64,000 nt of DNA from an uncultured Gammaproteobacteria bacterium (GCA_964510885.1 CAZEDL010000002.1:707-64706); one strand, 5' to 3'. Counted from the stretch's first letter, positions 1,431 through 50,006 are shown. Translations and numbers: made by a program. Notes: generated by a model from the sequence alone, not told the origin.

Positions 1431-1603
1431 GTCATCCTGATCCGCCCGAGGCGGAGAAGGATCCCTTAACGCTGACCCCATCGATGTTTTTGAATTTAAG
1501 GGATTCTTCGTTTCACTCAGAATGACAAGTTGATTGCGGTGTGGTGTGTGACTGGATTCCCGCCGGAGTTTACCCCCAGCGTAAGCGGGGGCGGGAATGA
1601 CAC
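1431..1603. repeat. Mosaic palindromic intergenic element, copy R1 (modules GTCATCCTGA..., AAGGGATTCTTCGTTTCACTCAGAATGACAAG, TGGATTCCCGCC...GGCGGGAATGACAC)
   Basis: Nested imperfect inverted repeats sharing modules with copies at 6867, 13483, 21731, 23656, 28644 and 52518. Confidence 0.75.
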
Positions 1604-2404: not shown

Positions 2405-2425
2405 ATAACTGCCTTACATTTATTA

Positions 2426-2456
2426 GAAACATCCGCTCGGATGTTTCTTTTTTTTG
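2426..2456 (+). terminator. Rho-independent terminator after rplA
   Basis: GAAACATCCG-CTC-CGGATGTTTC stem followed by T8. Confidence 0.7.
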
Positions 2457-2488
2457 CTTTAAATTAGCCAAAATAAAGCTAAAATGTC

Positions 2489-2517
2489 TTGACAAAACCG
2501 TTAAAATGTGCTATACT
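2489..2517 (+). promoter_or_regulatory. Conserved promoter module (TTGACA-17-TGCTATACT with extended -10) upstream of the GC-rich lipoprotein gene
   Basis: CTTGACAAAACCGTTAAAATGTGCTATACT; near-identical to the modules at 32212-32240(-) and 49776-49804(-). Confidence 0.6.
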
Positions 2518-2603
2518 TCTAAGTTCGGTTTTTCCGAACGATTCAATGCTCTTTGACAATTGATTGTGTGTTATAACCTACTTTTTGCCTTAGGTTAGCC
2601 ATT

Positions 2604-2686: not shown

Positions 2687-3904
2687 ATGGCGAACCTGAA
2701 CAAGCTCGTGATCCTGGCGTTATCTGCCCTCGTCTTTTGCGCCTGCGGCCAACCACCCTCTTCGGAGGAGCATCTGGCTGACCCGAGCGTTGACATGGGG
2801 CCCGCGTCTGACCTGAAGCCTGCCGATATGGCCGGCCCGAACCCTGACATGACGCCTCCCAAGGCGGACATGGGTGAGGTCGGTACGCGGGATCCGACCA
2901 AGCACCCCTTTGCTTCGAACCACCCGTTCAACACCTCAATCGGTAAGGGGGCAACATATAAGCCTGCTGGCCTCAAGCCGGCCAAGGAGATGGGCTACCT
3001 CTTGGCGGAGGAAGACATCATCGTGATGACCCCCACGGCACCCTCCACCAAGGTGCACCTGAACACGGCGGACTGGGTTCCTGGCGCTGACCGGTGTGAT
3101 ACGACTGGACCTGTCCTGTTCTCGGTTCCGATCCCGAAAGACTTCGTTGTTGCTGGTACCTGGCCGGACAACGTAACCCCCAACTCGTGCGTCTCCATAC
3201 TTAGCGCTGACGGACGGACAGTCATCCAGACTCAGCCGTTCGCGCGGTGCACAGCGGGCATGCCGGCCACTTCCCATTACCTGGTCGATCGTGTCGACCT
3301 GTATGGAACGAGTGCCACAGGCTGCCATGGCGGCAGCGGACTCAGCGGACTCGCTGGAACTCTGCGCATGGGCGAGATGATGCCTGGCAGTGGCCACGTG
3401 CGGCACGCCCTGAAGGTCGAGATGGACGGTAGTAACTACGCCGTCTGCCTCACCCCCGGGACCTGTTTCCGCTGGCCGGCTGTACAGGCTGATTGGGCTA
3501 GCGCCTCTTACACAGGCACGAACCCTGATCTCAAGCCCGGCGCCTTGCTTGCCCTACTCGCGACGCTCGACATCAAGAGCCTCGGCCTGAAGACTGGGGC
3601 TGCAAAAGAGTTGGCCTGGACCCTCCAGCACTACGGCGCCTACGTCATAGATAACACTGGCTGGGACATCTATGCCATCGCGGTGGAACGCGGCACGAGC
3701 AGCGAGTACAATGGACGTTATGTCGAGGAGTTCAAGGACAAGTGGGGATTCGACTTCGCTCCAGCGAACCCGAACAACAACTGGTCCAAGGACATCGCGA
3801 CGATCTTCGCCGCCCTTCAGGTCGTGACCAACAATAGTCCGACCTCGATCGGTGGCCCTGGTGATCGCCTCGACCTGCCCCTCCCCGCCCTCAAGCCCCT
3901 CTAG
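2687..3904 (+). CDS. GC-rich putative secreted lipoprotein, function unknown (possible horizontal acquisition)
   Basis: About 62% GC against about 46% background; AAAGGAGG Shine-Dalgarno 6 nt upstream of the ATG; signal peptide ending in LVFCAC(G). Confidence 0.6.
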   Translation: MANLNKLVILALSALVFCACGQPPSSEEHLADPSVDMGPASDLKPADMAGPNPDMTPPKADMGEVGTRDPTKHPFASNHPFNTSIGKGATYKPAGLKPAKEMGYLLAEEDIIVMTPTAPSTKVHLNTADWVPGADRCDTTGPVLFSVPIPKDFVVAGTWPDNVTPNSCVSILSADGRTVIQTQPFARCTAGMPATSHYLVDRVDLYGTSATGCHGGSGLSGLAGTLRMGEMMPGSGHVRHALKVEMDGSNYAVCLTPGTCFRWPAVQADWASASYTGTNPDLKPGALLALLATLDIKSLGLKTGAAKELAWTLQHYGAYVIDNTGWDIYAIAVERGTSSEYNGRYVEEFKDKWGFDFAPANPNNNWSKDIATIFAALQVVTNNSPTSIGGPGDRLDLPLPALKPL

Positions 3905-6833: not shown

Positions 6834-6866
6834 ACACGTAACACTTATCGAGTTTGGTGAAAAACT

Positions 6867-6956
6867 GTCATTCTGAGTGGAACGAAGAATCCCTTAACGC
6901 TAACTTCAGCAGTGAGTTTAACTTTAAGGGGTCCTTCGCTACGATCAGGATGACAG
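6867..6956. repeat. Mosaic palindromic element, copy R2 (GTCATTCTGAGTGGAACGAAGAATCCCTT ... AAGGGGTCCTTCGCTACGATCAGGATGACAG)
   Basis: Imperfect 29-bp inverted repeat arms around a 30-nt loop. Confidence 0.75.
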
Positions 6957-7015
6957 GTGGGGGGTTAATTATTCACTGAGCTCAACACCTATCATTTTTT
7001 TACGTGATACGTGAA

Positions 7016-10903: not shown

Positions 10904-10931
10904 AATGTCAATTATTATTGACATTTTTTTT
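10904..10931 (+). terminator. Rho-independent terminator after gatB, overlapping the next promoter -35
   Basis: AATGTCAAT-TATTA-TTGACATT followed by T8. Confidence 0.65.
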
Positions 10932-10946
10932 AATTTGTGCTAAACA
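10918..10946 (+). promoter_or_regulatory. Putative promoter TTGACA-17-TGCTAAACA
   Basis: The -35 lies in the terminator's right arm; extended -10 TTTGTGCTAAACA resembles the conserved TTTTGTGCTATACT module. Confidence 0.35.
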
Positions 10947-11127: not shown

Positions 11128-12084
11128 ATGCGGTGTTTGGTTTTGATAACAGTCCTAGCTGTCGGGTGCCAGGCACCTGACAGCTGGATCCCTCCTGAAA
11201 CCTGTTACGATGGCGTCGAAGATACCGGCGAGACCGGTGTCGACTGCGGGGGCACATGCCCCCAAGGGTGTGGTCCGCGCCAGTGCTTCGCCGATGACTC
11301 GTGTTGCAGCAGTGACGACGACTGCGCCACCGGCCTTAAGTGCCGGAGCGGGTTCTGCGGCGTCAGGGCCTGTGCGGATCAGACCGACTGCGCCGACGGG
11401 TTCACCTGCAGTGCAAACTCGCCCGATGCAGCCAAGTTCTGTAGCTATAGTGACGGATGCTCCGATGGCACACACACCATCGGGCTCGGAGAGACCGATG
11501 TGGACTGCGGTGGGGCGATTTGCCCCCTCTGCAAAGAGGGGAAGCACTGCTACCAGAACATCGACTGCGACTGGTCGGTCGGCCTCGTGTGCGGCGCAGG
11601 CAACATCTGCCAACGGCTCGCATGTTCCGACAACGGCGCGTCATGTGACAACGCCCTGCACCCTCCGGCACGGCCCTGGTTCACCTGCCAAGCCGGGACG
11701 TGCACCGCTCCGTCATGCCGCGATGGGGTGAAGAACGGCATTGAGACGGACGTGGACTGCGGCGGAGAGAGTGGCACCGGCCCTGGGTGCAATTCCACCT
11801 GCAGACCGGGCCAGAAGTGCGGCAGGTACTGGGACTGCCTGGACCGCGGCGCCTGCAACGCAGGCATCTGCCAAGCTCCCACCTGCACCGACGGGGTGAA
11901 GAACGGGGCCGGGGTGAAGACTGAGTGGGGTATCGACTGCGGCGATCAATCCGGGACGTGTCCCGGATGCCACAGTAACACCCCTTGCCAACAGAACTAC
12001 CACTGCGCCAGCGGCGTCTGCCACCAGTGTGCGTTGGGGGACCACAGTCCACCCTGCACCGCCACTGGGAGTTACTGTCAGTAA
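11128..12084 (+). CDS. GC-rich cysteine-rich secreted lipoprotein (about 60 Cys, repeated DCGG/CxxGxC modules)
   Basis: About 65% GC; AGAGGAG Shine-Dalgarno; signal peptide with lipobox LAVGC; repeated 'TDVDCGG..C' units. The many overlapping antisense ORFs in the track are GC artefacts. Confidence 0.6.
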   Translation: MRCLVLITVLAVGCQAPDSWIPPETCYDGVEDTGETGVDCGGTCPQGCGPRQCFADDSCCSSDDDCATGLKCRSGFCGVRACADQTDCADGFTCSANSPDAAKFCSYSDGCSDGTHTIGLGETDVDCGGAICPLCKEGKHCYQNIDCDWSVGLVCGAGNICQRLACSDNGASCDNALHPPARPWFTCQAGTCTAPSCRDGVKNGIETDVDCGGESGTGPGCNSTCRPGQKCGRYWDCLDRGACNAGICQAPTCTDGVKNGAGVKTEWGIDCGDQSGTCPGCHSNTPCQQNYHCASGVCHQCALGDHSPPCTATGSYCQ

Positions 12085-12204: not shown

Positions 12205-12245
12205 TAAAAAAATCTCATACATAATTGAGATTTTTTTATTTTTCT
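12205..12245 (+). terminator. Rho-independent terminator after the Cys-rich gene (A-run, stem, T-run; potentially bidirectional)
   Basis: AAAAAAATCTCA-TACATAAT-TGAGATTTTTTTATTTTT. Confidence 0.6.
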
Positions 12246-13482: not shown

Positions 13483-13664
13483 GTCATTCCCGAGCAGGCG
13501 GGAATCCAGTGGCCAATCACTCTATAACCACTTTGTCATTCTGAGCGGAGCGAAGAATCTCTGTCCGGTGGTGAGGCTAGAAATTAAAACAGAGATCCTT
13601 CACTGCGTTCAGGATGACAGTTGAGACGTGGATTCCCGCCTGCGGGAATGACAGATAGTAAACA
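13483..13664. repeat. Mosaic palindromic element, copy R3 (outer GTCATTCCCG...GGGAATGACAG arms enclosing GTCATTCTGAGCGGAGCGAAGAATCTCTGTC ... GACAGAGATCCTTCACTGCGTTCAGGATGACAG)
   Basis: Two nested inverted repeats; sits between carA and carB. Confidence 0.8.
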
Positions 13665-21730: not shown

Positions 21731-21917
21731 TCTCCTTAGGAGCTCTGAATTACGAAACTCAATTGTCATCCCGACAACGAAGGAGGGATCTCTGTCTCAA
21801 TTGGCCAACGTAAGGACCGGACAGAGATTGCCTGTGAGGCATCGCGAGACCTCGTCGCCGCGAGGCTCGCTCGGAATGACAAAGCGGTTAATTTCGTAAT
21901 TCAAAGCTTAGGGGGAG
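21731..21917. repeat. Mosaic palindromic element, copy R4, with about 27-bp terminal inverted repeats (TCTCCTTAGGAGCTCTGAATTACGAAA ... TTTCGTAATTCAAAGCTTAGGGGGAGA); MITE-like
   Basis: Terminal inverted repeats plus internal modules GTCATCCCGACAACGAAGGAGGGATCTCTGTC / GACAGAGAT and GTCGCCGCGAG...GGAATGACAAAG. Confidence 0.8.
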
Positions 21918-22046
21918 AATTTTTAGTTAGCAGGTATTTATTGAGTTGCTTTTTTAGAAAAAAATAGACAATGCCAATTTTGGCTAAGATATAAGGGTTA
22001 TTTTTTAATAAATGGCTAATATTAGCCAAAATATCGTCAAAACCCC

Positions 22047-22075
22047 TTGACAAGAGTGGTTTTTTGTGATATACT
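22047..22075 (+). promoter_or_regulatory. Conserved-type promoter TTGACA-17-TGATATACT upstream of the GC-rich secreted-protein gene
   Basis: CCTTGACAAGAGTGGTTTTTTGTGATATACT. Confidence 0.55.
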
Positions 22076-22214
22076 GATTTGTTTAGCATAAAGCTCCAAT
22101 CAAAATTGCTTAGCTAAACAGCACAACGTTGTTTCCTTGGTTTTGTTCATCACCGATTATGGTGGTGCAAAGATGTTCAGAAACAACCTCAAAAAGTGAC
22201 AACAAAGGAGTCCC

Positions 22215-22646
22215 ATGACAAAGTTCCTTCTCGCGCTTCTGGTAATCATCTCGATTGGGAACGCCAACGGCTCTCCCGCCTCAGGTGAGGACGACAACAC
22301 CAGCGACACCGAGGCATACGTCTGGTCCGACGAAGACTGGGCGGAACTCCTCAAGGAGGAGTGGGAGGTCGAGACTCCCGAGGAATGGTTGGGAGACGTG
22401 CTAAAGATGGTGTTTGCCGCCAACGATGTGCAGACGCCCGATGTCGACCAGAACTGGGCGTCGCAATATGACCCCGTCTTCTTTCTCATCTTTAAAGACG
22501 GCTACATGGGGTACACCCCGATCGCCGGGCAGCTGTACCACAACTGCCAAGACGTCGACATTCGCGAGGTCAAGGAGGGGCGATACCCGCGGACACCGCA
22601 TCAGCACGCGGCTCCGCGCATCCCCCCCATGAACCGGTGCCTATAA
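22215..22646 (+). CDS. GC-rich small secreted protein (143 aa), function unknown
   Basis: About 58% GC; AAAGGAG Shine-Dalgarno; N-terminal signal peptide; acidic, Trp-rich mature region. Confidence 0.5.
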   Translation: MTKFLLALLVIISIGNANGSPASGEDDNTSDTEAYVWSDEDWAELLKEEWEVETPEEWLGDVLKMVFAANDVQTPDVDQNWASQYDPVFFLIFKDGYMGYTPIAGQLYHNCQDVDIREVKEGRYPRTPHQHAAPRIPPMNRCL

Positions 22647-24357: not shown

Positions 24358-24436
24358 AACACGTAACACGTAACACGTAACACGTAACATACCAGCGCAA
24401 CTAATGTTGCGTGCTATGTGTTACGTGTTACGTGTG
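24358..24436. repeat. Heptamer-repeat palindrome: (ACGTAAC)x4 ... central hairpin GCGCAAC-TAAT-GTTGCG ... (GTTACGT)x2.5
   Basis: Tandem 7-mers in inverted orientation between the nif3 stop (24442) and the ruvA start (24355). Confidence 0.8.
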
Positions 24437-25470: not shown

Positions 25471-26985
25471 CTAAATTTTCTTATTAAGCCCAATGGCTTC
25501 GATGATTTTACCCGGCGTAAGATCAGCAAACTTAGGGTCGCGGTCGGGCTGAGAGTAGAGTACGGTATAAATTTCTGGAAGCATCGGCAGCATCATTTCA
25601 TTCAACGTAAGCTGCTTGGACAGGCGCAGAAAATCGGCCACGCCTAGGCGCGGTTCAAGCATAAGATCAATGCCAGTGGCTGGCACAACTTCTGGGCCGG
25701 TATGCGGGAGGCAGGCAAGCATCATGCCGTCACCGCCTAATTCCTTAGTCTGCACGGGTTCGACTGCTTCGGCTTCGTCTAAGTTTCCTACGCGGCGGAG
25801 CCACTCCTGCCAGGCAGTTTTTGATCTGGTTAAATCATTAACTTGAGAAAATCCACCCAAGCATTTCATGCCGTAGTAAAGCGAGATAATAATATAACAG
25901 AGCGTCATGCTCGGGAAAATTTCTTTGGTAGCGAGGCCTTTACTAATCGCGTCGGGGGTAAGCGGATAGACTTGGGTACCATCATCGGAACGAAGCTCGT
26001 CGCCTTTCAAAAACAGCTGCACGCGGCGCATATTCTTGTCTATAGCCCAAAACAGGAAGGTGCCCCAATTATTTTCAATAGAAAAAGCGCCCGGGATATT
26101 ATTAAATAATTCACGGAACAGGCGACGACTTTCGGTATCAAATAAGAACTGATGGATGAGCGAGGCTGTATCTTTGAAATGAATAGTTTGCAGGAGTTCT
26201 GTAACAATCGTTTCGATTTCAATATAAATTACATCCGGCATCAGGCCGTCTGTCTGCTTGAAGAAGTGCTGCCAGAGGCGAAAATTGATTTTGGTTATCT
26301 GCGAGCAGATATCCGGATCGTTAATTACATCAGCGGCACCGAAGTAGGTTTTTAGAATCTCAATAACTTTCTGGCCTTTATCAGCGGGGATTTCTTTGCG
26401 GGCAATCTTTTTTTCGAGTTCGGCGCAGGCGCGATCTAAATTTTCTTGCGAATAGGCTGGGGCGGTGTAGACCGTGGCCATTTTACTTTTATCCGGCGAG
26501 AGCGGTACCCTGAGCAAGGTATTTGAATCAGCGGCATCCGGATGCAACACAACTCCACGCGGGTACGAGGAGTTGTTCATGGAGACCGTGGCAAAGGAAA
26601 AATCGATGAGATAGCGCCAATTTGGATGGCTCTTCTCAAGCAGCGGGAGCCCGGTGATGATATTGGAGTTTAAAAAAAAGGGATGGGTGACCGGGCCATG
26701 ATGATCGGCGGTCGAAACCAGCGGGAGTTCCCGGAGCTGGGTAGCCACACCGGCAGCCACTTCAGGGCCGAGGCGGGCCGCGAGCAGGCGCTCAACCACG
26801 GCAATCAGTTCGGGCTTGCGCGCATCGAGGCGCGGACTTTTATTGATATCTAAAAAATCTTGGGTATAGGAATACAGGGTTTTGTCCCCGTGCTTTTTCA
26901 TGATTTCGCCCAAAATCGGGCGGCGTTGCCAAATAATCTCTTCGAGTTCTGTAATCAAACTACCAGTAGGATCACCATCTCCCAT
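25471..26985 (-). CDS. Hypothetical protein (504 aa), no recognisable motif
   Basis: Long ORF with native-like composition and its own conserved-type promoter. Confidence 0.5.
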   Translation of the reverse strand: MGDGDPTGSLITELEEIIWQRRPILGEIMKKHGDKTLYSYTQDFLDINKSPRLDARKPELIAVVERLLAARLGPEVAAGVATQLRELPLVSTADHHGPVTHPFFLNSNIITGLPLLEKSHPNWRYLIDFSFATVSMNNSSYPRGVVLHPDAADSNTLLRVPLSPDKSKMATVYTAPAYSQENLDRACAELEKKIARKEIPADKGQKVIEILKTYFGAADVINDPDICSQITKINFRLWQHFFKQTDGLMPDVIYIEIETIVTELLQTIHFKDTASLIHQFLFDTESRRLFRELFNNIPGAFSIENNWGTFLFWAIDKNMRRVQLFLKGDELRSDDGTQVYPLTPDAISKGLATKEIFPSMTLCYIIISLYYGMKCLGGFSQVNDLTRSKTAWQEWLRRVGNLDEAEAVEPVQTKELGGDGMMLACLPHTGPEVVPATGIDLMLEPRLGVADFLRLSKQLTLNEMMLPMLPEIYTVLYSQPDRDPKFADLTPGKIIEAIGLNKKI

Positions 26986-27036
26986 ATAGAGAATTAAGTA
27001 CGTTAACTGTCTCCTTTTAGAAATAGCTAAACCCTC

Positions 27037-27065
27037 AGAGTACTCTGATTAGGCTTTTTTGTCAA
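27037..27065 (-). promoter_or_regulatory. Promoter (minus strand) TTGACA-17-TACTCT for the 504-aa gene
   Basis: CTTGACAAAAAAGCCTAATCAGAGTACTCT read on the minus strand. Confidence 0.45.
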
Positions 27066-27267
27066 GCAGGTTTCACTTTTTTGAGACCTTTTTAAGAAGG
27101 ATTGGCGTAGCACTAAGCTTATCGAAATAAGCGCACTGGAACGCCCGTGAGAGTGACCGCGTGCCAAGAAGGCAGCGGGTCTCGCGGGGAAAGGCCCAAC
27201 CTGCCGAGCCGGGCGCGGGGCGCTGGCTGGGGAGGTATGGGTGTGTGGTGGGAGGAGGGGGAGCTCG

Positions 27268-28428: not shown

Positions 28429-28583
28429 GACTCGCTCCTGAAAAGGTTGAGGACGTTGGTAGGGACCGGGGAAAACTAGGCTAACATAAGCCCACTTTTC
28501 CCCGGTGTTTCTTCCTAATAACCACACAAATTGTAAAGAACTTGCCTATATTAAGCCAAATTTTGGCAAAATATAACCACTTA

Positions 28584-28612
28584 TAATAGCACAAAATAGC
28601 GAAAAAGTCAAG
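28584..28612 (-). promoter_or_regulatory. Promoter (minus strand) TTGACT-17-TGCTATTAT upstream of the VanX-like gene
   Basis: CCTTGACTTTTTCGCTATTTTGTGCTATTAT; conserved TTTTGTGCTAT extended -10. Confidence 0.5.
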
Positions 28613-28643
28613 GTCTTCGTGGCCGTAGCGCGGTAAATAACTC

Positions 28644-28783
28644 TCATTCTGAGTGAAACGAAGAATCTCTGTCGGTCGGTATAGTGGCCAATTGGACAGA
28701 GATCCTTCACGTTCGTTCAGGATGACAGGTGAATTTCGTAATTCAAAGCTCTAAGGGATCCTTCGCTACGCTCAGGATGACAG
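28644..28783. repeat. Mosaic palindromic element, copy R6 (TCATTCTGAGTGAAACGAAGAATCTCTGTC...GACAGAGATCCTTCACGTTCGTTCAGGATGACAG + TTTCGTAATTCAAAGCTCTAAGGGATCCTTCGCTACGCTCAGGATGACAG)
   Basis: Two tandem hairpin modules including the TTTCGTAATTCAAAGCT inverted-repeat module seen in R4. Confidence 0.8.
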
Positions 28784-28852
28784 GATGGGGTATTATTCGC
28801 CAAGCTAAATGATCATAACTAAAAATTTTTGGCCTAACGTTAGAATAAAAAA

Positions 28853-31583: not shown

Positions 31584-32156
31584 TCAGGCCTTCCTTTTTG
31601 GCGCTTGCCTCGACATGGCTTGGGCATCTTTGCCCTTGCCATAGCCGATGTAGGCGCCGATCGCCAGCGCAGCCATGAAAGGCCACGAGACGACCGGAAA
31701 TTTGAGGATGCTGCCGGAAGCAATTCCGAGCAGCAGTGAAGCGACCATCATGGCCGCGATCCCAAACGCTGCCCCGATCACAACGCCCAAACAGACACCA
31801 AGCCCGGGGGCAAGATCCACATCCGGCTTTGACAGCTGGGGTGGCGGGCGGCGAACTGGATAATTGTTATGGTCAAGTTCGACCATCTGCCCATCCGGAC
31901 CCATAACGGTCCGGACGTGGCCGTGGCCGTGCGCGCCGTGGTGATCACCACCGTGTGGATCATGGTGACCATGGTGGTCGTGGCCGTCACTGTGACCGTT
32001 GTCGGTATGGGCCGGGTGGCCGTGATGGGGGGCCTCCTGACCGTGATCGTGATGATCGTGGTCATGGTGGCCGGCAGGGCCACCATGATGATCGTCATGA
32101 CCATCGTGCTCGTGATCACCATCAAAATCATCATCGTCATCGCTGTCGTCGCTCAT
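31584..32156 (-). CDS. GC-rich His/Asp-rich low-complexity protein with two C-terminal TM helices (putative metal-binding membrane protein)
   Basis: MSDDSDDDDDFDGDHEHDGHDDHHG...HGHGH region then LGVCLGVVIGAAFGIAAMMVASLLLGIA; AAGGAGG Shine-Dalgarno; about 60% GC; start taken at the second Met. Confidence 0.55.
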   Translation of the reverse strand: MSDDSDDDDDFDGDHEHDGHDDHHGGPAGHHDHDHHDHGQEAPHHGHPAHTDNGHSDGHDHHGHHDPHGGDHHGAHGHGHVRTVMGPDGQMVELDHNNYPVRRPPPQLSKPDVDLAPGLGVCLGVVIGAAFGIAAMMVASLLLGIASGSILKFPVVSWPFMAALAIGAYIGYGKGKDAQAMSRQAPKRKA

Positions 32157-32211: not shown

Positions 32212-32240
32212 TAAACAGAGTAGTATAGCACAAAAACAGG
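32212..32240 (-). promoter_or_regulatory. Conserved promoter module (minus strand) TTGACA-17-TGCTATACT for the His-rich gene
   Basis: CCTTGACAAAACCCTGTTTTTGTGCTATACT; near-identical to 2489-2517. Confidence 0.6.
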
Positions 32241-32295
32241 GTTTTGTCAAGGTCTTTTGGCTTTATTTTGTTTTATTTTAGCCAAATTTTATACG

Positions 32296-32425
32296 AAAAC
32301 ACCCTCGATTATAATCGAGGGTGCTAGCCAAGCCGCGAACCACAGGGTTCACGGCACACGAACGAGCCCGACGGGCAAACCATCCTTGGTGCCGCCGATT
32401 CGCAGGTTGCCACCCCCGTCGAAAC
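32296..32425 (-). ncRNA. Candidate GC-rich structured ncRNA or 3'UTR element between two intrinsic terminators downstream of ileS
   Basis: About 65% GC non-coding stretch; a 10-bp stem GCCGUGAACC-CUGU-GGUUCGCGGC with a single G-U pair; ends in hairpin CACCCTCGAT-TATA-ATCGAGGGTG followed by a U-run (minus strand). Confidence 0.4.
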
Positions 32426-43405: not shown

Positions 43406-45046
43406 TTATTTCTGCCTGTCTATCATTTCATCTACTGAAACATCGAGATCTCTTCCACTCTTCCAGATGTCTTTCACCTGCTCTAATCGTTTCACTTGTG
43501 CCGCAACTGCTTCGACCGACTGACGCACGCTCACCATGTCACTATCTAATCCGCTCAATGTTGTATAAAAAAGATTCTCTCTATCAGAGGCAGATTCTAT
43601 TGAACGAATCTCTGCAAGCTTCTTTTCTATTCCAGGTCGTAGCTCCTGTAATCGAGTGCTACGTTCTGCCAATTCTTGTTCTGCTTGTGAAATACTTTGA
43701 CGGTACTCATCTGCTTGAGAGGTGAGATCACTCTGGTATCCTGCCTGCTGATTAATTTCTTGTTCCAATTCCTGATCCCGCTGTTGGTCCTTTGGTTTTT
43801 TGCTGAACAATTTTTTCGGCAGCTGGGCACGTTGCTCTTTCAGCTCATCTAAGCTACGCTGAGCAGCTTGCAAATTGAGTTCGCTTCCTGATAAATGACG
43901 GCTGTTTACTAATAATTGATCCAAAATTTTATACGCATCTTCAAAGAGAGATGCTGTTTGCTGAAGCTTTTTTAATCGGGTTTGCTGGATTTCAGCCTCG
44001 CCTACGGCACTAGCAAGCATTCGCTCCAATTCAGGCAATTTATTTGCCAAGGCTCTTTTGTTATAATCTTCATTTTCCGCTAGTGCCTGGCTGTGAATTG
44101 CCCCATGAACATCTACTCGATACTCACTCTTACGCAAGCGCTGTTCGAGACTTGCCCGATCTTCCTTATTTATAATCGACTCGTCCACAATTTTGCGCTC
44201 CTGGGGAGAAAAAGTGGCTATAATTCTTTCTTCAGGAATTTCAGTTAAATCAACTCCCTGAGCGCCGTTGTAAATGAGCACACTTTTATTCTGTTCAGGA
44301 TTTTTTTTATTACTATAGTCAAAACGCAATGCGCAATTTCTAATTTTGTCTATTTGATCTGCCTGCAATTTTACTTCTTTCCAACCTCTTCCTTTTTCTA
44401 GAAGGTCCTCCAATTCTTCCTTAAATTTAGTTACATACTCATTATAAATGCGGGCATTATTAAAAATGCCTCTGGGCATACCTCTTAAATGACGGGCCCC
44501 TTCTTCAAAAGAATGAACTACTTGGCTGCTATCGCGTGCTTCGAGCGCCCAATGATTGACAAAATTCCTCGCAGATCCTTTAGCATGATCGCGGTAACTT
44601 TCTACAACCTCTTGCATTCGTCTTTCATCTTGAACATAGTTCCAAACGGCGTCTATCCTAGACTGGGAAATTTCCCGCTCTCCCATATATGCTTTGGCTG
44701 TATCAGACAATTGACGCATATCTCTTTTTGATCGATCTAACACGCGAAGGTCTTCTGTAATTGAATCACGAAGAGCTTGAATTTTTAGCTGCCAAATTTG
44801 AGCATTTTCAGCCGTGGCACGTGGAATTTCTTCTGTTTCAATCCGATGTATCTCATGTTTTGCGGCTTGAATTTTACCGGAAATTTCTTCTATTTGGCGG
44901 GCCAATTGGCCTGATTCTTGATATCCCGTCTCCAACTTAGCAACAACTGCAGAGGTGCTTTGGCCACCGAGTTCGTGCCCAGTAAGTGGTTCTAAAAAAC
45001 TTTTCTCACCGGCTGCCGTCCCTGATTGTTTAAATGTTTCGGCCAC
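43406..45046 (-). CDS. Large coiled-coil protein (546 aa), function unknown
   Basis: Heptad-rich, Q/E/R/L-dominated sequence; no TM or signal peptide. Confidence 0.5.
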   Translation of the reverse strand: MAETFKQSGTAAGEKSFLEPLTGHELGGQSTSAVVAKLETGYQESGQLARQIEEISGKIQAAKHEIHRIETEEIPRATAENAQIWQLKIQALRDSITEDLRVLDRSKRDMRQLSDTAKAYMGEREISQSRIDAVWNYVQDERRMQEVVESYRDHAKGSARNFVNHWALEARDSSQVVHSFEEGARHLRGMPRGIFNNARIYNEYVTKFKEELEDLLEKGRGWKEVKLQADQIDKIRNCALRFDYSNKKNPEQNKSVLIYNGAQGVDLTEIPEERIIATFSPQERKIVDESIINKEDRASLEQRLRKSEYRVDVHGAIHSQALAENEDYNKRALANKLPELERMLASAVGEAEIQQTRLKKLQQTASLFEDAYKILDQLLVNSRHLSGSELNLQAAQRSLDELKEQRAQLPKKLFSKKPKDQQRDQELEQEINQQAGYQSDLTSQADEYRQSISQAEQELAERSTRLQELRPGIEKKLAEIRSIESASDRENLFYTTLSGLDSDMVSVRQSVEAVAAQVKRLEQVKDIWKSGRDLDVSVDEMIDRQK

Positions 45047-45146
45047 ATGTTTATTACTTATGATTTTAACTATTAAAAAATTTTGCTGGTGCCAATTTTT
45101 TATTTTTGCTTAAATTTTTATCCTAAACAGACACGCTCCTATTCCT

Positions 45147-46142
45147 TTACGGCAACGACTGTTCGTACTGCTCATTCGCCAATTTTTTAACCCACTGCCA
45201 GTATTTTACGATAAAATTTGCACCCTTATGGTGATCACCGCCTGGAGCTGTGGAATCTCCAGCTGTCTCTACCGCGGCTGCAAGCGCCGGACAGCCTAGC
45301 TTTATTCGCCTAGAGTCTGGCTTTTGCAAGCCATCTACAGCTTGCTGAGTAAAATCAAGCCCCAGTGTTCCGGCTTCTACATCCCCACTTAGCTGAAAAA
45401 ATTCTGGGTTGAAAGAATCAAAACGATTTTTAAAACCGGGGCGAATATGTGTTAGACGGGTTCGGAGCTGCCTGAGAACACTTCCATGTTCGCGAGCAAT
45501 TGCTATAAACGGGCCGGCTGATTTATCAAGTGTTTTTTGGAACTCGACAGGAGTTGGCATGCGACCAAATTGTTTTTTAAATAATGTGGGGATAATACGC
45601 GCAGTGGCCCACATAAAATCGGAAGCATTATTAACTGCTCCTGCCAAACGAGTGCTTACGACAGCGTCTATCGTGTCTGCTTCAGCAATCACGTTTCGAC
45701 GATTAACCAATAAAGTTTGTTTGAAACGATTATACCTCTTCAGCGAGTCATCCCATTCGCCTTCGGGGAGCTCGTCTAATTGTTTCTCTTTATTTTCACA
45801 CTGGCTCGCCAATAAACCGCGAAGAACAAATTCAGAATATTCTTGAGCGGCAAATGACTGATCCTTACCACGCTCTTCGGCTAAAGCATGAAATTTTCCT
45901 AACCATATTGCGTGTTCTTCTGGCGACATTGATTCTATACACGCAAACGTGTCTGGACCAAGATCTTCGAGAACTATGGCAGCGCTCTTAAAAAGCTCCG
46001 TTTCTACCATCTTCCAAGGACCATGTTCGGGAATCAAATCGCCAAGCGGCCCCAGATCAAGGTTATGTTTTTCACGTCTTAAATTAACCTGCTCCCACCC
46101 GTCACTTAACCTGGCCAGCTGCCCGAATATTCTTTCCGGCAT
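45147..46142 (-). CDS. Hypothetical protein (331 aa) translationally coupled to agmatinase
   Basis: Start overlaps the agmatinase stop region (46142 vs 46150). Confidence 0.5.
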   Translation of the reverse strand: MPERIFGQLARLSDGWEQVNLRREKHNLDLGPLGDLIPEHGPWKMVETELFKSAAIVLEDLGPDTFACIESMSPEEHAIWLGKFHALAEERGKDQSFAAQEYSEFVLRGLLASQCENKEKQLDELPEGEWDDSLKRYNRFKQTLLVNRRNVIAEADTIDAVVSTRLAGAVNNASDFMWATARIIPTLFKKQFGRMPTPVEFQKTLDKSAGPFIAIAREHGSVLRQLRTRLTHIRPGFKNRFDSFNPEFFQLSGDVEAGTLGLDFTQQAVDGLQKPDSRRIKLGCPALAAAVETAGDSTAPGGDHHKGANFIVKYWQWVKKLANEQYEQSLP

Positions 46143-46149
46143 AATGGGA

Positions 46150-47226
46150 TTATAACTTCCCTTGACTTTTAGCCATCAGGTTGGCAAGCCGGTACATGGC
46201 CCGGGCGCCTACAATACTGTCCCAATCATCTTTTACTCCCGGAGCGACTTCGCAGAGATCAAAGCCGATAATGGTTTTGCCTTGTTTAATAAGCATTTCA
46301 ACCAAGTAAAATACTTGTTCAAATTCGAGCCCGCCAGGAACCGGTGTACCGGTGTGCGGGCAGAGGGCCGGGTCAAGCGCGTCAATATCAAAGCTGATAT
46401 ACACTTTATCTGACAGCGGCTTAGTTATTTCGGTGCAGAGCTGTTTCCAGGTGGCGCCTTCGTAGGCGCGGCGCTTTAAATTAATATCATCAAAGGCAAT
46501 TATCTTGCCGTTTGAATCTTTGATCCGGTTGGCTTCTTGCTCGCTGTAATCCCGGATGCCGAGGAGCACAAATTGATCGATGTTTTTGATATTTTTATAA
46601 GCATTGTACTGAATCGAAGCATGTGAGAATTCAAACCCTTCAAAGGCTTCACGCATATCGGCATGGGCATCGATATGTAACATAGAAAAGCTGTCATATT
46701 TTTCAGACAAGGCTTTCATATACCCTTGCGGCACGCTGTGTTCGCCGCCCATCACGCAGACGCTTTTCCCGGCGGCTAATAATTTTTTACTTTCTTTGTA
46801 GACCCAGTCATTTAATTCGCGGCCGGCGGCATTGATTTCATCGTAGTATTTTTTAACTTTTTTATCGGCGGGATTTCCACCGGCATAGAGATGGTCCAAA
46901 CACTTTTCAGCTTTGGGGCGCAGCAGGTTATTTTTCTTTTGCCAATAACTGGAGATGGGGAGCATGCCGATGCCTAGTTTCCAAGCATCTGGAATGTCCT
47001 GATTATATAAATCAATCTGATACGATGCATTGATCATCGTTGCGGGCCCTTTCGCGGTGCCGGTGCGGTAAGATACAGTGACTTCCCAGGGCATGGGAAT
47101 GACTACTACTTCGGATTCATCGTTAGTAAACGGCAAGCCGAAAATATTACTACCTTCGACTGAAAAAGCACTAGGATCAAATGAAGAAATTTTTTTGTTT
47201 TTTTTATCGATATTTTTTTGATCCAT
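46150..47226 (-). CDS. speB: Agmatinase (arginase/ureohydrolase family)
   Basis: Mn-binding motifs GGEHS, DAHADM and SFDIDALDP. Confidence 0.8.
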   Translation of the reverse strand: MDQKNIDKKNKKISSFDPSAFSVEGSNIFGLPFTNDESEVVVIPMPWEVTVSYRTGTAKGPATMINASYQIDLYNQDIPDAWKLGIGMLPISSYWQKKNNLLRPKAEKCLDHLYAGGNPADKKVKKYYDEINAAGRELNDWVYKESKKLLAAGKSVCVMGGEHSVPQGYMKALSEKYDSFSMLHIDAHADMREAFEGFEFSHASIQYNAYKNIKNIDQFVLLGIRDYSEQEANRIKDSNGKIIAFDDINLKRRAYEGATWKQLCTEITKPLSDKVYISFDIDALDPALCPHTGTPVPGGLEFEQVFYLVEMLIKQGKTIIGFDLCEVAPGVKDDWDSIVGARAMYRLANLMAKSQGKL

Positions 47227-47234
47227 AGAGCCTA

Positions 47235-48344
47235 TTAGAGATCAAGCAATACCGCCGCAATCCACGGGAATACTACGGTGGCGTCGCTCTGAATGATTTG
47301 ATAATAGCTCTTAGTTGATAATTTATCCCAAGTGATTTTTTCTTTACCACCGGCGCCAGAGTAGGAGCCATAGGACATTGGGGATGAGCCAATTTCTATA
47401 AACCCAGCCCAGTCGCGTACTTTGCTGTGAAGCTGTAGATCGTGTTTGATAGACGGGACTACGCAAATAGGGAAATCGGCGGCAATACCGCCACCAAGCT
47501 GCAAGAAAGCGATTGGACTATTCTTGGACTCGGCCATGTACCAATCGTAGAGCCAGGTGAAGTAATCAAGGCCAGTTTTCATTACGCGCGGGCTGACGGT
47601 GGGGCTATTTTTATTTTTATATTTACCATTGTAGGTGTAACTGGCAAAGACGTTGCCCATGGTGGAATCTTCAAAGCCAGGAATCACAATGGGGACATTT
47701 TTTTCGTAGGCGGCGTAGGTCCAGCAGTCATTCGGATTAGCAGCTTTATCTGGCTTGATTAGTCCTTCCGCAAATAAGCGACGGAAATATTCGTGCGGGA
47801 AATAGCTCTCCCCTGTCTTCTCGGCTTCTTTCCACATTTTTAATAGGTGCGGCTCCATGATGCGTACACTTTCATCTTCGGGCAGGAAGGTGTCTGTAAT
47901 ACGGCGGAGGCCCGCGTCGCGGAGTTCGGCTTCTTGGTCGGGGGTCAATTCGGTATAGCGTGGGATGTACGAATAGTGGGAATGCGCTACATAGCGGTAA
48001 TACGATTCTTCGTGGTTGGCTCCCGTGGCCGAAATCATATGTACTTTACCTTGGCGGATCAGTTCGGCTAGCATGACCCCCACCTGGAACGAGCTAAGGG
48101 CTCCAGAGATAGTAACCACCAGTTTACCGCCTTTTTTGAGGTGGTCTTTGAGCCAGAGTGCTGCCTGCAGTGTAGATCCTGCGTTGCAGTGATTGAGGGT
48201 ATTCATGGCATAGGCCGATACCGGACTAACGCTCTTTTTTACGGCTTGGCTGATCGTGCCGCCCGACAAAATACGCGTGTTATTTTCCGGGACTATCATT
48301 TTTTTGAGTCCGGCGGACAGTTTGGAAAGTTTGGCTTTGGACAT
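47235..48344 (-). CDS. Deoxyhypusine synthase-like protein (possible homospermidine synthase)
   Basis: DHS-family length and motifs (GGxxxD-like NAD pocket, ...GFEDSTMGN...); sits in the polyamine operon. Confidence 0.65.
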   Translation of the reverse strand: MSKAKLSKLSAGLKKMIVPENNTRILSGGTISQAVKKSVSPVSAYAMNTLNHCNAGSTLQAALWLKDHLKKGGKLVVTISGALSSFQVGVMLAELIRQGKVHMISATGANHEESYYRYVAHSHYSYIPRYTELTPDQEAELRDAGLRRITDTFLPEDESVRIMEPHLLKMWKEAEKTGESYFPHEYFRRLFAEGLIKPDKAANPNDCWTYAAYEKNVPIVIPGFEDSTMGNVFASYTYNGKYKNKNSPTVSPRVMKTGLDYFTWLYDWYMAESKNSPIAFLQLGGGIAADFPICVVPSIKHDLQLHSKVRDWAGFIEIGSSPMSYGSYSGAGGKEKITWDKLSTKSYYQIIQSDATVVFPWIAAVLLDL

Positions 48345-48355
48345 AGGATGAAAAA

Positions 48356-49735
48356 TTACCAGCCGAATAATTTAGCAATTTCTTCGGGTGATTCACGTTT
48401 GCGGAAGACGTTGACGAGACCGTTTTGTAGTACAACTTTGGCTGGAGATGAAAGTAAGCAATGGTGCATGGCAAAGGCATCTTGGTAGGCGCCGGTGTCG
48501 AGCACGGCAATATACATGTCTTCGCCGGGGCCAAGATCTTCAAAGCGCGGCAGGAGCACATGCCCGTCAGCATCGGCATATTTGTCGTCGCTGTCGCAGG
48601 TGAGACCAGATAACCAGACGCGATCTTTCTTTTTAGCATCGAGGTGGGTGGCCGGAATAACATGCCATTTCTGGTGAATGGCCCAAGTGTCGAGCAGGTC
48701 GTTCATAAAGCTGCCATCCACGATATACCACTTTTTGGCGCCGCCATTGCTAGAGTTGTTAATATCTTTGGTGCCGATTACTTTGAAGACCGTGATTTGA
48801 GCTGGTGCAGCAATGTAGCGTCCCCATTCGGTGATGATATTCGGATGGGGCACCCCGGCGCGGTCACTGAGATCTTTGAGAGTAGTGACAATGCGCTTTA
48901 CGACACTTTCTACTTTGTAGAGCGGCTCGGTTTTTTCATAGGGAATCGGGAGGCCACCACCAATATTAATGGTGTCGAGGCTGGGGTTCAATTTGCGGAT
49001 CTTGAGGTAGGCACCGAAGGCTTCACGCACGGCCTGCACCAGATCATTTTCTTTCATAATCATGGAACCGATGTGGTAATGCAGGACTTTCAGATTGCGA
49101 ATTTTGCCGAGGTCGATAATTTCTTGTTCCAAGAGGCCAAACCGGTCGATTTTTTTATCCCAGTGAGAGCTGACTTTGGTCTGAAGATTGATGCGGATAC
49201 CTACATCACCTTTGAATCCACGCAGCGAATCGAGCTCGTCTACCGCTTCGATAATCGGAATGATGGCCAAATTTTTATCTTGTAATTCCTGAATCAGGCG
49301 CAGATATTGGACGGTTTTGGGGCCATTGCAAAGGATGCGGATTTTGGAGTGAAAATTTTCATTTTCCCACATTTTCTTCACCATCCAGAGTTCGTTGGCC
49401 GAGGTGACTTCGAGGTGGGCGCCTTCGGCGACAAGCGGCAAGACAAATTCTTTGCTTTGATTCACTTTCATTGGAAAGTGGTAGGTATATTTGCCTTTAT
49501 ACCCAGCTGATTTCATCGTGGAATAAAAAATCTCCAATAAATTGGAGAGGCGCTGCTCGAGCACGGAGGGCATGAAAATTTTGATGGACGCGTCGAATTT
49601 GCGCGCTAAATCGTAGACAGTGTATTGGTAATTACCTTCGCGAATCACGAGTTCACCATCGGGATTGACGTCAAAAAAATCAGTATTGAATTCTTTTTTA
49701 CCTAGTTTCCAAAATTGCTTGAAATTTTTTTTCAT
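48356..49735 (-). CDS. speA: Arginine decarboxylase, fold-III PLP-dependent (SpeA-like)
   Basis: HFPMKVNQ PLP-lysine motif and NIGGGLPIPY; start taken at MKKNFKQ. Confidence 0.7.
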   Translation of the reverse strand: MKKNFKQFWKLGKKEFNTDFFDVNPDGELVIREGNYQYTVYDLARKFDASIKIFMPSVLEQRLSNLLEIFYSTMKSAGYKGKYTYHFPMKVNQSKEFVLPLVAEGAHLEVTSANELWMVKKMWENENFHSKIRILCNGPKTVQYLRLIQELQDKNLAIIPIIEAVDELDSLRGFKGDVGIRINLQTKVSSHWDKKIDRFGLLEQEIIDLGKIRNLKVLHYHIGSMIMKENDLVQAVREAFGAYLKIRKLNPSLDTINIGGGLPIPYEKTEPLYKVESVVKRIVTTLKDLSDRAGVPHPNIITEWGRYIAAPAQITVFKVIGTKDINNSSNGGAKKWYIVDGSFMNDLLDTWAIHQKWHVIPATHLDAKKKDRVWLSGLTCDSDDKYADADGHVLLPRFEDLGPGEDMYIAVLDTGAYQDAFAMHHCLLSSPAKVVLQNGLVNVFRKRESPEEIAKLFGW

Positions 49736-49775
49736 GCCGCGCCGGGGGTTAGATAAAAATAATAAAAGTAGAGTT

Positions 49776-49804
49776 ATTGTAGCACAAAATAAGGCTTTTG
49801 TCAA
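49776..49804 (-). promoter_or_regulatory. Conserved promoter module (minus strand) TTGACA-17-TGCTACAAT for the polyamine operon
   Basis: CATTGACAAAAGCCTTATTTTGTGCTACAAT; upstream AAAGCCAAAAGG block shared with 32241-32260. Confidence 0.55.
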
Positions 49805-50006
49805 TGCCTTTTGGCTTTAATTTTAGAAATTTTTGAAGAAAATTTTCGCAAGAGTACCGATCTGATGCCGAAAAAGTATCTGAGTATAACTAAATACTAT
49901 TTTTTCTGGCCACTTGATCCAGACGCCAATTAATTTGGCAACTAAACCAGGGGGTTGTCCGTTTTGCGCTCGGGTGAGGCTAGGGGGACAGGGCCTATAG
50001 ATGCTG

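What the first reader, a model, noticed from the sequence alone, without database searches (positions are those of the whole stretch)
2461..2517. Highly conserved roughly 60-bp promoter module reused in front of unrelated genes (native and GC-rich alike)
2461-2517(+), 32212-32270(-) and 49776-49830(-) align almost base for base: AAAATAAAGC(T/C)AAAAG-CCTTGACAAAA-CC-T-TTTTGTGCTATACT. This comprises an A-rich UP-like block, a consensus -35, a 17-bp spacer and an extended -10 TGCTATACT. Shorter versions occur at 22047, 28584(-), 27037(-), 10918 and 4085. Such near-identical promoters before a lipoprotein, a His-rich protein and the polyamine operon suggest a mobile promoter cassette or a strongly constrained housekeeping promoter class.
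Basis: seen in the sequence. Interest (0 to 1): 0.55.

Follow-up and report, generated by a model that had tools for sequence, protein, structure and literature searches.

The report
Reused strong promoter with A-tract upstream element
Four near-copies of one very strong, textbook-style bacterial promoter sit in front of unrelated genes in this small candidate-phyla-radiation genome. Three of those genes look compositionally foreign. This is a tidy case of promoter reuse, not a new kind of element.

Summary
A 39-nt pattern shared by the three cited sites occurs 3 times in the window and 0 times in shuffles. A fourth full member lies at 21997-22085(+).

Each copy has four parts:
- A-tracts centred at -41.5, -52.5, -62.5 and -73.5, which are the published alpha-CTD/UP-element positions.
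- TTGACA.
- A 17-bp spacer ending in TGTG (extended -10).
- TATACT or TACAAT.

Each copy lies in an intergenic region, co-oriented with a downstream gene.

The core (TTGACAAAA...T.TG.TA...T) is the general consensus promoter of related Patescibacteria. The A-tract upstream half was not found in 1.3 Mb of relatives' loci.

Outside the two hexamers the four copies are 55-72% identical. Other strong promoters in the window are 32±8% identical to each other. Weakly constrained positions have largely diverged, and there are no terminal repeats.

It is therefore a discrete, genome-specific family of UP-element promoters. It arose by old duplication and/or convergence and is not a recently mobile cassette.

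Three of the four copies drive compositionally atypical genes for predicted secreted or membrane proteins, so "housekeeping" does not fit. The "shorter versions" are ordinary strong promoters.

Caveat: my two strict collection scans were mis-specified and are void.

The parts
2453..2525 (+). Module copy 1. Phased A-tracts 2453-2488, -35 TTGACA 2489-2494, 17-bp spacer 2495-2511 with TGTG at 2507-2510, -10 TATACT 2512-2517. Predicted start of transcription about 2523-2525.
21997..22085 (+). Module copy 2. -35 TTGACA 22047-22052, TGTGA, -10 TATACT 22070-22075. A perfect 16-bp palindrome TGGCTAATATTAGCCA lies at 22013-22028, centred at about -61.5.
32212..32300 (-). Module copy 3. -35 TTGACA 32250-32245, -10 TATACT 32227-32222. 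It carries one extra ~10-nt A-tract unit compared with copy 4.
49775..49832 (-). Module copy 4. -35 TTGACA 49804-49799, -10 TACAAT 49781-49776.
2425..2448 (+). Terminator-like hairpin plus T-run after rplA, immediately upstream of copy 1.
32300..32323 (-). Perfect 24-nt palindrome followed by TTTTCG, immediately upstream of copy 3. It is terminator-like.
2687..3904 (+). Gene driven by copy 1. GC 0.61, GC3 0.75. Signal-peptide or lipoprotein-like, no Pfam family. Closest non-self relatives are ~50% identical and lie in Polyangia and other non-CPR bacteria. The 5' UTR is about 163 nt and contains a long hairpin at 2600-2656.
22215..22646 (+). Gene driven by copy 2. GC 0.59, GC3 0.78. Has a signal peptide. 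It is an orphan: the only database hit is itself. The 5' UTR is about 133 nt.
31584..32156 (-). Gene driven by copy 3. A His/Asp-rich protein with C-terminal membrane segments. GC 0.60, GC3 0.63. SD AAGGAGG lies before the ATG at 32156. The 5' UTR is about 59 nt.
43406..49735 (-). Native-composition operon driven by copy 4. It encodes a PLP-dependent Orn/Arg decarboxylase (48356-49735), a deoxyhypusine-synthase-like protein (47235-48344), an arginase/agmatinase-family protein (46150-47226) and two unknown proteins.
28583..28611 (-). NOT a family member. This strong promoter of the GC-rich M15-like gene is orthologous to the promoters of that gene's homologues in other contigs.
10918..10946 (+). 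NOT a family member. A generic strong promoter (TTGACA-17-TGTGC-TAAACA) before the GC-rich Cys-rich gene 11128-12084.

Best explanation
These are four related copies of a very strong housekeeping-sigma (sigma-70/sigma-A type) promoter that carries a full UP element.

Inferred mechanism (from what is established for such elements, not shown for this organism):
- Sigma region 4 reads TTGACA.
- Sigma region 3 reads the TG of the extended -10 (TGTGn).
- Sigma region 2 reads TATACT or TACAAT.
- The two alpha C-terminal domains dock in the narrowed minor grooves of A-tracts phased every 10-11 bp at about -42, -52, -63 and -73.
- Transcription should start about 7 nt after the -10, largely constitutively and at a high level.

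Shown here:
- The sequence anatomy, the phasing, the intergenic position and the orientation.
- Two of the four copies sit directly behind a terminator.
- The -35-to-(-10) core equals the consensus promoter of related Patescibacteria.
- The four copies form a discrete cluster not shared by other strong promoters in the window or by relatives' loci.

Inferred origin:
- The upstream half arose within this lineage by old duplication or reuse of a promoter, with slippage of ~10-11-nt A-tract units, and/or by convergent selection for maximal strength.
- It is now held in place by purifying selection on the functional positions.
- It is not a currently mobile element.
- Three of the four copies give strong native transcription signals to compositionally atypical ORFs whose GC-rich DNA begins at the start codon.
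For: Anatomy and significance.

A-tract phasing:
- A-tract centres lie at -41.5, -52.5, -62/-63 and -73.5/-75.5 in the family and not in most other promoters of the window.
- Published alpha-CTD positions are -43 and -53, and transiently -63, -73 and further (PMC3326320).

Core is lineage-wide:
- In 44 TTGACA-N17-TAnnnT sites from 0.81 Mb of Patescibacteria-like loci, A is found at -29/-28/-27 in 77/65/59%, T at -17 in 68% and G at -14 in 68%.
- The Magasanikbacteria locus L002 has TTGACAAAACGTTGTTTTTGTGCTATAGT.

The architecture is generic in bacteria: at least 120 metagenome contigs match it, with consensus AAAAATTTTT.AAAAA....TTGACAAA.

The family is discrete:
- Identity outside the hexamers is 55-72% within the family, against 32±8% (max 51%) for 60 other promoter pairs in the window.
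- Over 66 free positions the window pairs share 28, 34 and 38. Unrelated architecture-matched promoters share 22.6±4.8 (99th percentile 34).
- The best of 126 unrelated promoters against each window copy shares only 27, 27 and 32.

The upstream half is specific to this genome: the AAAA-N6/7-AAAA-N4-TTGACA-N16-18-TAnnnT architecture occurs 0 times in 1.30 Mb of relatives' loci and 3 times in this 64-kb window.

Indel of one A-tract unit between copies 3 and 4.

The four copies tie for the top promoter score among 34 upstream regions.
Against: - There are no transcript data, so initiation at these sites is inferred.
- The distal UP half is A-rich, not the A-then-T pattern of the E. coli consensus.
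- The conserved G-Y-Y before each A4 tract (GCCAAAA, GCTAAAA, GTCAAAA at 11-bp spacing) is not required by alpha-CTD. It could mean that a DNA-binding protein recognises the repeats.
- Descent and convergence cannot be separated. Identity at low-information positions is 0.34, 0.44 and 0.56 against a null of 0.30±0.09.
- Only 64 kb of the source genome was available, so genome-wide copy number is unknown.
- The relatives' loci used as controls are 39-61% identical in IleRS and partly non-CPR.
Confidence: 0.72

Rival explanations
1. Pure convergence. The four promoters arose independently, and selection for maximal strength drove each to the same optimum (UP element, -35, TGTG and -10). They share no common ancestry.
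For: - The conserved positions are those with known function. The positions between them (-39..-36 and -26..-20) differ freely between copies.
- The pair 2489/22047 is at background identity at low-information positions: 0.34 against 0.30±0.09.
- The 28611 promoter reaches a similar core (TTGAC-N17 with TTTTGTGCTA) although it is orthologous to promoters of homologous genes elsewhere. Such cores can therefore arise or persist independently.
Against: - The pairs 32250/22047 and 32250/2489 exceed the 99th percentile of unrelated architecture-matched promoters over 66 free positions. They also exceed the best of 126 such promoters.
- Similarity runs to about -85 and about +10, beyond the known contact region.
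- There are shared idiosyncratic strings: ATTAGCCAAAATA, AAAGCCAAAAG and GYC at -46..-44.
- The architecture is absent from 1.3 Mb of relatives.
Confidence: 0.3
2. Recently mobile promoter cassette. The module is, or rides on, a small non-autonomous mobile element (MITE, Correia or REPIN-like) that inserts upstream of genes and brings an outward-facing promoter.
For: - The copies sit upstream of unrelated genes, as with the 'putative mobile promoters' of Matus-Garcia et al. (PMC3575422).
- Copy 3 is an AT-rich island between two GC-rich stretches, 32290-32420 and the His-rich ORF.
- The window does contain a separate family of palindromic MITE-like repeats, next to copy 2 and inside the copy 1 leader.
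Against: - No terminal inverted repeats or target duplications bound the module.
- Identity is only 55-84%, with indels.
- Unconstrained positions have largely diverged.
- No match was found in plasmid or phage collections. Only chance-level partial hits were found in viral contigs.
- The MITE-like repeats are a different sequence family.
Confidence: 0.07
3. Shared operator or regulon. The upstream block is the binding site of a transcription factor that co-regulates the four units. One candidate is a winged-helix response regulator reading GYYAAAA direct repeats spaced 11 bp and abutting the -35. Another is a dimer on the TGGCTAATATTAGCCA palindrome centred at -61.5.
For: - Heptamers GCCAAAA, GCTAAAA and GTCAAAA recur at 11-bp spacing. 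Their G-Y-Y prefix is not needed for alpha-CTD binding.
- TTAGCCAAAAT with at most 1 mismatch is enriched, 11 found against 2.4 expected, and 5 of these lie in module-bearing intergenic regions.
- A perfect palindrome lies at a class-I activator position in copy 2.
Against: - The palindrome is complete in only one copy and is not significant on its own: 1 found against 0.29 expected, and 25 of 100 shuffles reach it.
- A promoter with consensus -35, extended -10 and -10 needs no activator.
- The A-tract centres coincide with alpha-CTD positions.
- No regulator gene was found near any copy.
- The downstream genes have no functional link.
Confidence: 0.12

Closest known systems
UP-element promoters (E. 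coli rrnB P1 type; Estrem et al. 1998/1999; Aiyar et al. 1998, as cited in PMC3326320) and phased-A-tract or curved-DNA promoters of Gram-positive bacteria and their phages
   Same: - A/T-tracts are centred about one helical turn apart at about -42, -52, -63 and -73, next to a consensus -35.
- The promoter is expected to be activator-independent and very strong.
- The same architecture is abundant in metagenomes.
   Different: - The distal subsite here is A-rich (AAAATAAA), not A-then-T.
- A G-Y-Y prefix precedes each A4 tract.
- The host is a Patescibacteria (CPR) genome. I found no promoter study for this group in the one literature search I ran.
- Function has not been tested.
Extended -10 / '-16 region' (TRTGn) promoters of Gram-positive bacteria (Voskuil & Chambliss 1998; from my own knowledge)
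   Same: TGTG(C/A) lies directly before the -10 in all four copies. T at -17, T at -15 and G at -14 are also enriched in related Patescibacteria promoters.
   Different: Here it is combined with a perfect -35 and a UP element, so all known strength determinants are present at once.
Putative mobile promoters / promoter reuse (Matus-Garcia, Nijveen & van Passel 2012; PMC3575422)
   Same: Homologous-looking upstream sequences lie in front of non-homologous genes within one genome. They are not a known IS or Rfam family.
   Different: - The formal threshold of at least 80% identity over at least 50 nt is not reached. The best pair is 84% over 49 nt and the others are 71-76%.
- No sign of recent movement was found.
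Promoter-bearing MITEs (Correia elements, ERIC, REPIN)
   Same: They are short repeats in intergenic DNA that can supply promoters.
   Different: The module has no terminal inverted repeats or target duplications and much lower copy identity. The window's true MITE-like repeats (GTCATTCTGAG...GAAGAATC) are a separate family.

Membership tests
Sigma-70-type promoter with UP element | -35 hexamer close to TTGACA and -10 hexamer TAnnnT, separated by 16-18 bp | tested here: met
   TTGACA, a 17-bp spacer, and TATACT (three copies) or TACAAT (one copy). This is 11 of 12 matches in all four copies.
Sigma-70-type promoter with UP element | Extended -10 TG at -15/-14 | tested here: met
   TGTGC or TGTGA precedes the -10 in all four copies.
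Sigma-70-type promoter with UP element | A/T-tracts centred near -43 and -53 (and further at -63 and -73), on one face of the helix | tested here: met
   A-tract centres are at -41.5 and -52.5 in all four copies. Further tracts lie at -62/-63 and at -73.5/-75.5 in two or three copies. Positions are as given in PMC3326320.
Sigma-70-type promoter with UP element | Intergenic, upstream of and co-oriented with a gene | tested here: met
   All four copies lie 34-163 nt upstream of a start codon on the same strand. Two follow a terminator-like hairpin.
Sigma-70-type promoter with UP element | Transcription initiates about 7 nt downstream of the -10 and is stimulated through alpha-CTD | not testable with these tools
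   No transcript or biochemical data are available.
Putative mobile promoters (PMP, Matus-Garcia et al. 2012) | At least 80% identity over at least 50 nt between upstream regions of one genome | tested here: not met
   The best pair is 84% over 49 nt (32221-32269 vs 49775-49823). The others are 71-76% over 53-89 nt. The criterion is taken from PMC3575422.
Putative mobile promoters (PMP, Matus-Garcia et al. 2012) | Downstream coding sequences are not paralogous | tested here: met
   The four downstream proteins have different or no Pfam families and unrelated sequences.
Promoter-bearing MITE (Correia/ERIC/REPIN-like) | Terminal inverted repeats and target-site duplication bounding each copy | tested here: not met
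   Repeat searches and all-vs-all BLAST of intergenic DNA found no inverted repeats or flanking direct repeats bounding the modules. Inspection of the flanks agrees.
Promoter-bearing MITE (Correia/ERIC/REPIN-like) | Many near-identical copies per genome | tested here: inconclusive
   Four copies at 55-84% identity were found in 64 kb. The rest of the 166,980-nt source contig could not be retrieved.
Transcription-factor regulon operator | A specific repeated or palindromic motif shared by all members, beyond what RNA polymerase needs | tested here: inconclusive
   GYYAAAA heptamers at 11-bp spacing are present in all four copies. The palindrome is complete only in copy 2 and is not significant alone.
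Transcription-factor regulon operator | Cognate regulator gene and functionally linked target genes | tested here: not met
   No DNA-binding regulator was found next to any copy. The only candidate in the window is a YebC/TACO1-family protein at 52685-53407. The targets are functionally unrelated.

The most novel reading that the evidence does not exclude
The module may be a standard 'expression socket' through which this CPR bacterium domesticates foreign ORFs. Copies of one promoter-plus-leader are repeatedly joined, by a recurrent recombination route, to incoming GC-rich ORFs exactly at the start codon. If so, genome-wide the module would mark horizontally acquired genes for surface or secreted proteins.

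Supporting hints:
- Three of the four copies precede compositionally atypical ORFs.
- In the ORFs profiled, the GC jump sits close to the start codon.
- The five atypical ORFs have higher promoter scores than native units (Mann-Whitney p about 0.001, using an ad hoc score).
- A relative (L002) also has a GC-rich island behind a consensus promoter directly after ileS.

Against:
- For the M15-like gene, the arrangement of promoter, leader and GC-rich ORF is old and conserved across contigs.
- The sample is very small.
Probability: 0.12. Interest if true: 0.6.

Novelty: new member of a known kind. Interest (0 to 1): 0.3.

Why it matters
Promoters of candidate-phyla-radiation bacteria are essentially uncharacterised. 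This window gives a clean, testable model of a maximal-strength promoter: UP-type phased A-tracts, TTGACAAAA, a 17-bp spacer, TGTGn and TATACT. It also shows that the core is shared across related Patescibacteria. That is useful for annotation and for building expression tools in these hard-to-grow organisms.

The link between the strongest native-type promoters and compositionally foreign or orphan genes for predicted secreted or membrane proteins is a small but concrete lead. It bears on how reduced episymbiont genomes put acquired genes to work. The element itself works by well-known rules and is not a new kind of system.

Tried and rejected
1. Void scans. The strict pattern used (genome contigs; metagenome contigs) had N8 where N7 was needed, giving an 18-bp spacer. 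It does not match even the window. Both 'no match' results are void and say nothing about recurrence elsewhere. Both scan quotas were then spent. One search failed for a similar spacing error.

2. Source contig not retrieved. Exact-protein look-ups failed. Only a 2.5-kb Logan contig identical to window 26151-28673 was found. Cluster look-up gave no name or accession.

3. Rfam and tRNA scans found nothing in the window, so the module is not a known RNA gene.

4. No origin in plasmids, phages or viral contigs. There were no hits in plasmids, one 38-nt partial hit in a gokushovirus, and five chance-like partial hits in viral contigs.

5. CTTTTTGCC as a shared leader motif was rejected. It is not enriched: 37 found against 29±5.5 expected.

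6. The palindrome TGGCTAATATTAGCCA as a family-wide operator was rejected. It is complete in one copy only.

7. 28611, 10918, 4078 and 27065 as degenerate family members were rejected on identity. For 28611 there is also orthology with promoters of homologous genes in other contigs.

8. The literature search for Patescibacteria promoter motifs returned nothing relevant.

Full report
**Check of the observation**

The three cited sites are present as described. Each has TTGACA, a 17-bp spacer ending in TGTGC, and a -10 hexamer. The -10 is TATACT at 2512-2517 and at 32227-32222. Upstream of the -35 lies an A-rich block, AAAAT(A/T)AAAGC(C/T)AAAA.

The corrected 39-nt pattern AAAGCYAAAANNNNTTGACAAAANCNNNNNNNTGTGCTA matches exactly three times. 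It never matched in 100 shuffles, even with three mismatches allowed.

All-vs-all BLAST of the window's 7.7 kb of intergenic DNA recovers the family objectively and adds a fourth full member at 21997-22085(+):
- 2453-2525 vs 32286-32214: 73 nt, 74% identity, E 1.5e-11.
- 21997-22085 vs 32300-32212: 89 nt, 71% identity, E 3e-12.
- 32221-32269 vs 49775-49823: 49 nt, 84% identity.
- 2463-2517 vs 22021-22075: 55 nt, 71% identity.

Local-alignment z-scores against shuffles are 5.3-14.1 for five of the six pairs and 3.0 for the sixth. The generic promoter scan lists all four at 11 of 12 hexamer matches with TG before the -10.

**What organism and context**

The window's IleRS is closest to Magasanikbacteria, Falkowbacteria and other Patescibacteria, at 51-61% identity. 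This is therefore a CPR genome of about 47% GC.

The other genes include tgt, rplA, thymidylate and pyrimidine synthesis genes, gatB, a polyamine operon and rpoC.

Five monocistronic ORFs are compositionally atypical, against about 0.50 GC3 for the rest:

| ORF | GC3 |
|---|---|
| 2687-3904 | 0.75 |
| 11128-12084 | 0.76 |
| 22215-22646 | 0.78 |
| 27268-28428 | 0.87 |
| 31584-32156 | 0.63 |

In fine GC profiles the GC-rich DNA begins close to the start codon. The promoter and leader have native, AT-rich composition.

**Anatomy of the module**

I number positions with the -35 hexamer at -35..-30 and the -10 at -12..-7. A-tract centres then fall at -41.5 and -52.5 in all four copies. Further tracts lie at -62/-63 and at -73.5/-75.5 in two or three copies. 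Most other promoters in the window lack this pattern.

These positions match published work. One alpha C-terminal domain sits on the proximal UP subsite near -43. The other sits near -53 and transiently at -63, -73 and further (PMC3326320, read).

The upstream block can also be read as about 11-bp units of the form G-Y-Y-AAAA-N4. The -35 unit, TTGACAAAACC, has the same form. Copy 3 has one more such unit than copy 4.

Copies 1 and 3 lie directly after terminator-like hairpins. Predicted leaders are about 163, 133, 59 and 34 nt.

**Is the core special?**

It is not. I took 44 TTGACA-N17-TAnnnT sites from 0.81 Mb of Patescibacteria-like loci fetched around IleRS:
- The three bases after the -35 are A in 77, 65 and 59% of sites.
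- T at -17 is found in 68%.
- T at -15 is found in 54%.
- G at -14 is found in 68%.

A Magasanikbacteria locus has TTGACAAAACGTTGTTTTTGTGCTATAGT. Within the window, the rplA promoter (1630) and the 27065 promoter also read TTGACAAAAAA(C/G)C. The stretch from -35 to -10 is therefore the lineage's consensus promoter.

A metagenome scan used the fixed architecture AAAAT-N6-AAAA-N4-TTGACAA-N11-TGTG-N-TA. Their consensus is the classical UP element, AAAAATTTTT.AAAAA....TTGACAAA. The architecture as such is common in bacteria.

**Is the family more than shared architecture?**

It is, but only moderately.
- Outside the two hexamers the four copies are 55-72% identical (mean 64%). The 60 other pairs among 12 strong promoters of the window average 32±8%, with a maximum of 51%.
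- At the 66 positions left free by the architecture pattern, the three window copies that fit it share 28, 34 and 38 positions. Unrelated metagenome promoters share 22.6±4.8, with a 99th percentile of 34.
- The best of 126 unrelated promoters reaches only 27, 27 and 32 against the three window copies.
- The two-A-tract-plus-consensus architecture occurs 0 times in 1.30 Mb of relatives' loci and 3 times in this window.

At positions that carry little information in unrelated promoters, identity between window copies is 0.34, 0.44 and 0.56. The null is 0.30±0.09, with a 99th percentile of 0.53. One pair therefore shows clear extra similarity, one shows modest extra similarity and one shows none.

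This pattern fits old duplication followed by purifying selection on functional positions, or partial convergence. It does not fit a recent spread.

I found no terminal inverted repeats or target duplications. I also found no counterpart in plasmids, phages or viral contigs.

**The 'shorter versions'**

The sites at 28611-28583(-), 27065-27037(-), 10918(+) and 4078(+) share only generic elements with the family.

The 28611 promoter is informative. The M15-like gene it drives has homologues of 53-61% identity in other contigs of 47-51% GC. There too the ORF is GC-rich, with GC3 of 0.79-0.94. In three of the four contigs examined (L202, L204, L206) it is preceded by an AT-rich leader of about 200-280 nt and a recognisably orthologous promoter, (A)GTATTGAC(A/T)TTTT(T)GC...TGGTAT. 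That promoter is therefore inherited with its gene, not copied from the module. It also shows that a similar core can persist independently.

**Association with atypical genes**

Three of the four module copies precede atypical ORFs:
- A signal-peptide protein (2687-3904). Its nearest relatives, at about 50% identity, lie in Polyangia and other non-CPR bacteria. One of them sits in a 69% GC contig.
- An orphan secreted protein (22215-22646).
- A His/Asp-rich membrane protein (31584-32156).

The fourth copy drives a native polyamine operon.

With an ad hoc promoter score, the five atypical ORFs rank 1-3 (tied), 6 and 9 among 34 upstream regions. Mann-Whitney p is about 0.001. The score and the grouping were chosen after seeing the data, so this is a lead only.

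A relative (L002) also has a GC-rich island behind a consensus promoter directly after ileS.

**Conclusion**

The best-supported reading is a small, genome-specific family of maximal-strength sigma-70-type promoters with UP-type phased A-tracts.
- Promoter function is inferred from sequence with high confidence, but is not shown.
- Whether the family arose by descent or convergence is unresolved.
- Current mobility is unlikely.
- A transcription-factor operator in the upstream block remains a minor alternative. The reasons are the conserved G-Y-Y prefixes and the enriched TTAGCCAAAAT motif.
- In kind, this is a known type of element and a known phenomenon, namely promoter reuse (PMC3575422). 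The formal PMP identity threshold is just missed.

**Limits**

My two strict scans of the large collections were mis-specified and are void. The rest of the source contig could not be obtained.

Noticed in passing
window 1456-1564, 6856-6970, 13497-13634, 21733-21890, 28632-28797; related hairpin 2600-2656: A separate family of palindromic, MITE-like intergenic repeats built on GTCATTCTGAG(C/T)G(A/G)A(A/G)CGAAGAATC and its complement, at 67-96% identity. Copies lie upstream of rplA, the DHFR gene and carB, and next to module copy 2 and the 28611 promoter. A related long hairpin sits in the leader of gene 2687-3904 (fold z-score -4.4).
   Followed up: partly
window 27268-28428(-); loci L202/L203 10001-11149, L204 10001-11212, L205 1777-2925, L206 8215-9384: The M15/VanX-like gene is GC-rich (GC3 0.79-0.94) in every one of five contigs whose flanks are 47-51% GC. 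The proteins are only 53-61% identical. The high GC content is therefore either maintained over long divergence or re-acquired repeatedly. I have no explanation for this.
   Followed up: partly
window 28578-28495(-); L202 9793-9880, L204 9720-9810, L205 1554-1640, L206 7994-8085: The long AT-rich leader of the M15-like gene has conserved blocks, for example GATCTTTTACAnnTTGGTT. It also has a possible 7-bp stem at its 5' end, with compensatory changes at 4 pairs. Only five sequences were available, so this is weak. It may be a cis-regulatory leader. There is no Rfam match.
   Followed up: partly
window 32290-32430(-): A GC-rich patch (60-67% GC, about 130 nt) lies between the ileS terminator and module copy 3. 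It contains two strong hairpins (fold z-score -4.0) and ends in a terminator-like palindrome. It could be a remnant of foreign DNA or a small RNA.
   Followed up: partly
L002 12963-14977 (Candidatus Magasanikbacteria, downstream of ileS): A relative has a three-gene GC-rich island (GC 0.54-0.63 in a 0.45 genome) directly after ileS. It is preceded by TTGACA-17-TGgTATACA. This is the same position as the His-rich gene in the window, so it may be an insertion hot spot.
   Followed up: partly
window 11128-12084(+): A GC-rich gene (GC 0.64) for a Cys-rich secreted or lipoprotein-like protein with internal repeats (ETGVDCGG...C). It is flanked by similar AT-rich palindromes at 10904-10930 and 12205-12238.
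   Followed up: no
window 24359-24435: A near-perfect palindrome made of tandem ACACGTA heptamers (82% over 77 nt). It lies between the ruvA-like gene and the NIF3-like gene.
   Followed up: no
window 34828-34867, 39959-39982, 51951-52027: Recurrent TTCGTAATTCG-type short repeats, partly inside coding sequence (ileS) and partly as an intergenic inverted pair.
   Followed up: no
window 2464, 21977(-), 22022, 28560(-), 32278: The motif TTAGCCAAAAT or its complement is enriched (11 sites with at most 1 mismatch, against 2.4 expected). It clusters in the promoter-bearing intergenic regions.
   Followed up: partly
window 40773-41144(+): This gene encodes a bAvd-like / 23S-rRNA-intervening-sequence protein, a family that accompanies diversity-generating retroelements. 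No reverse transcriptase gene was seen next to it.
   Followed up: no
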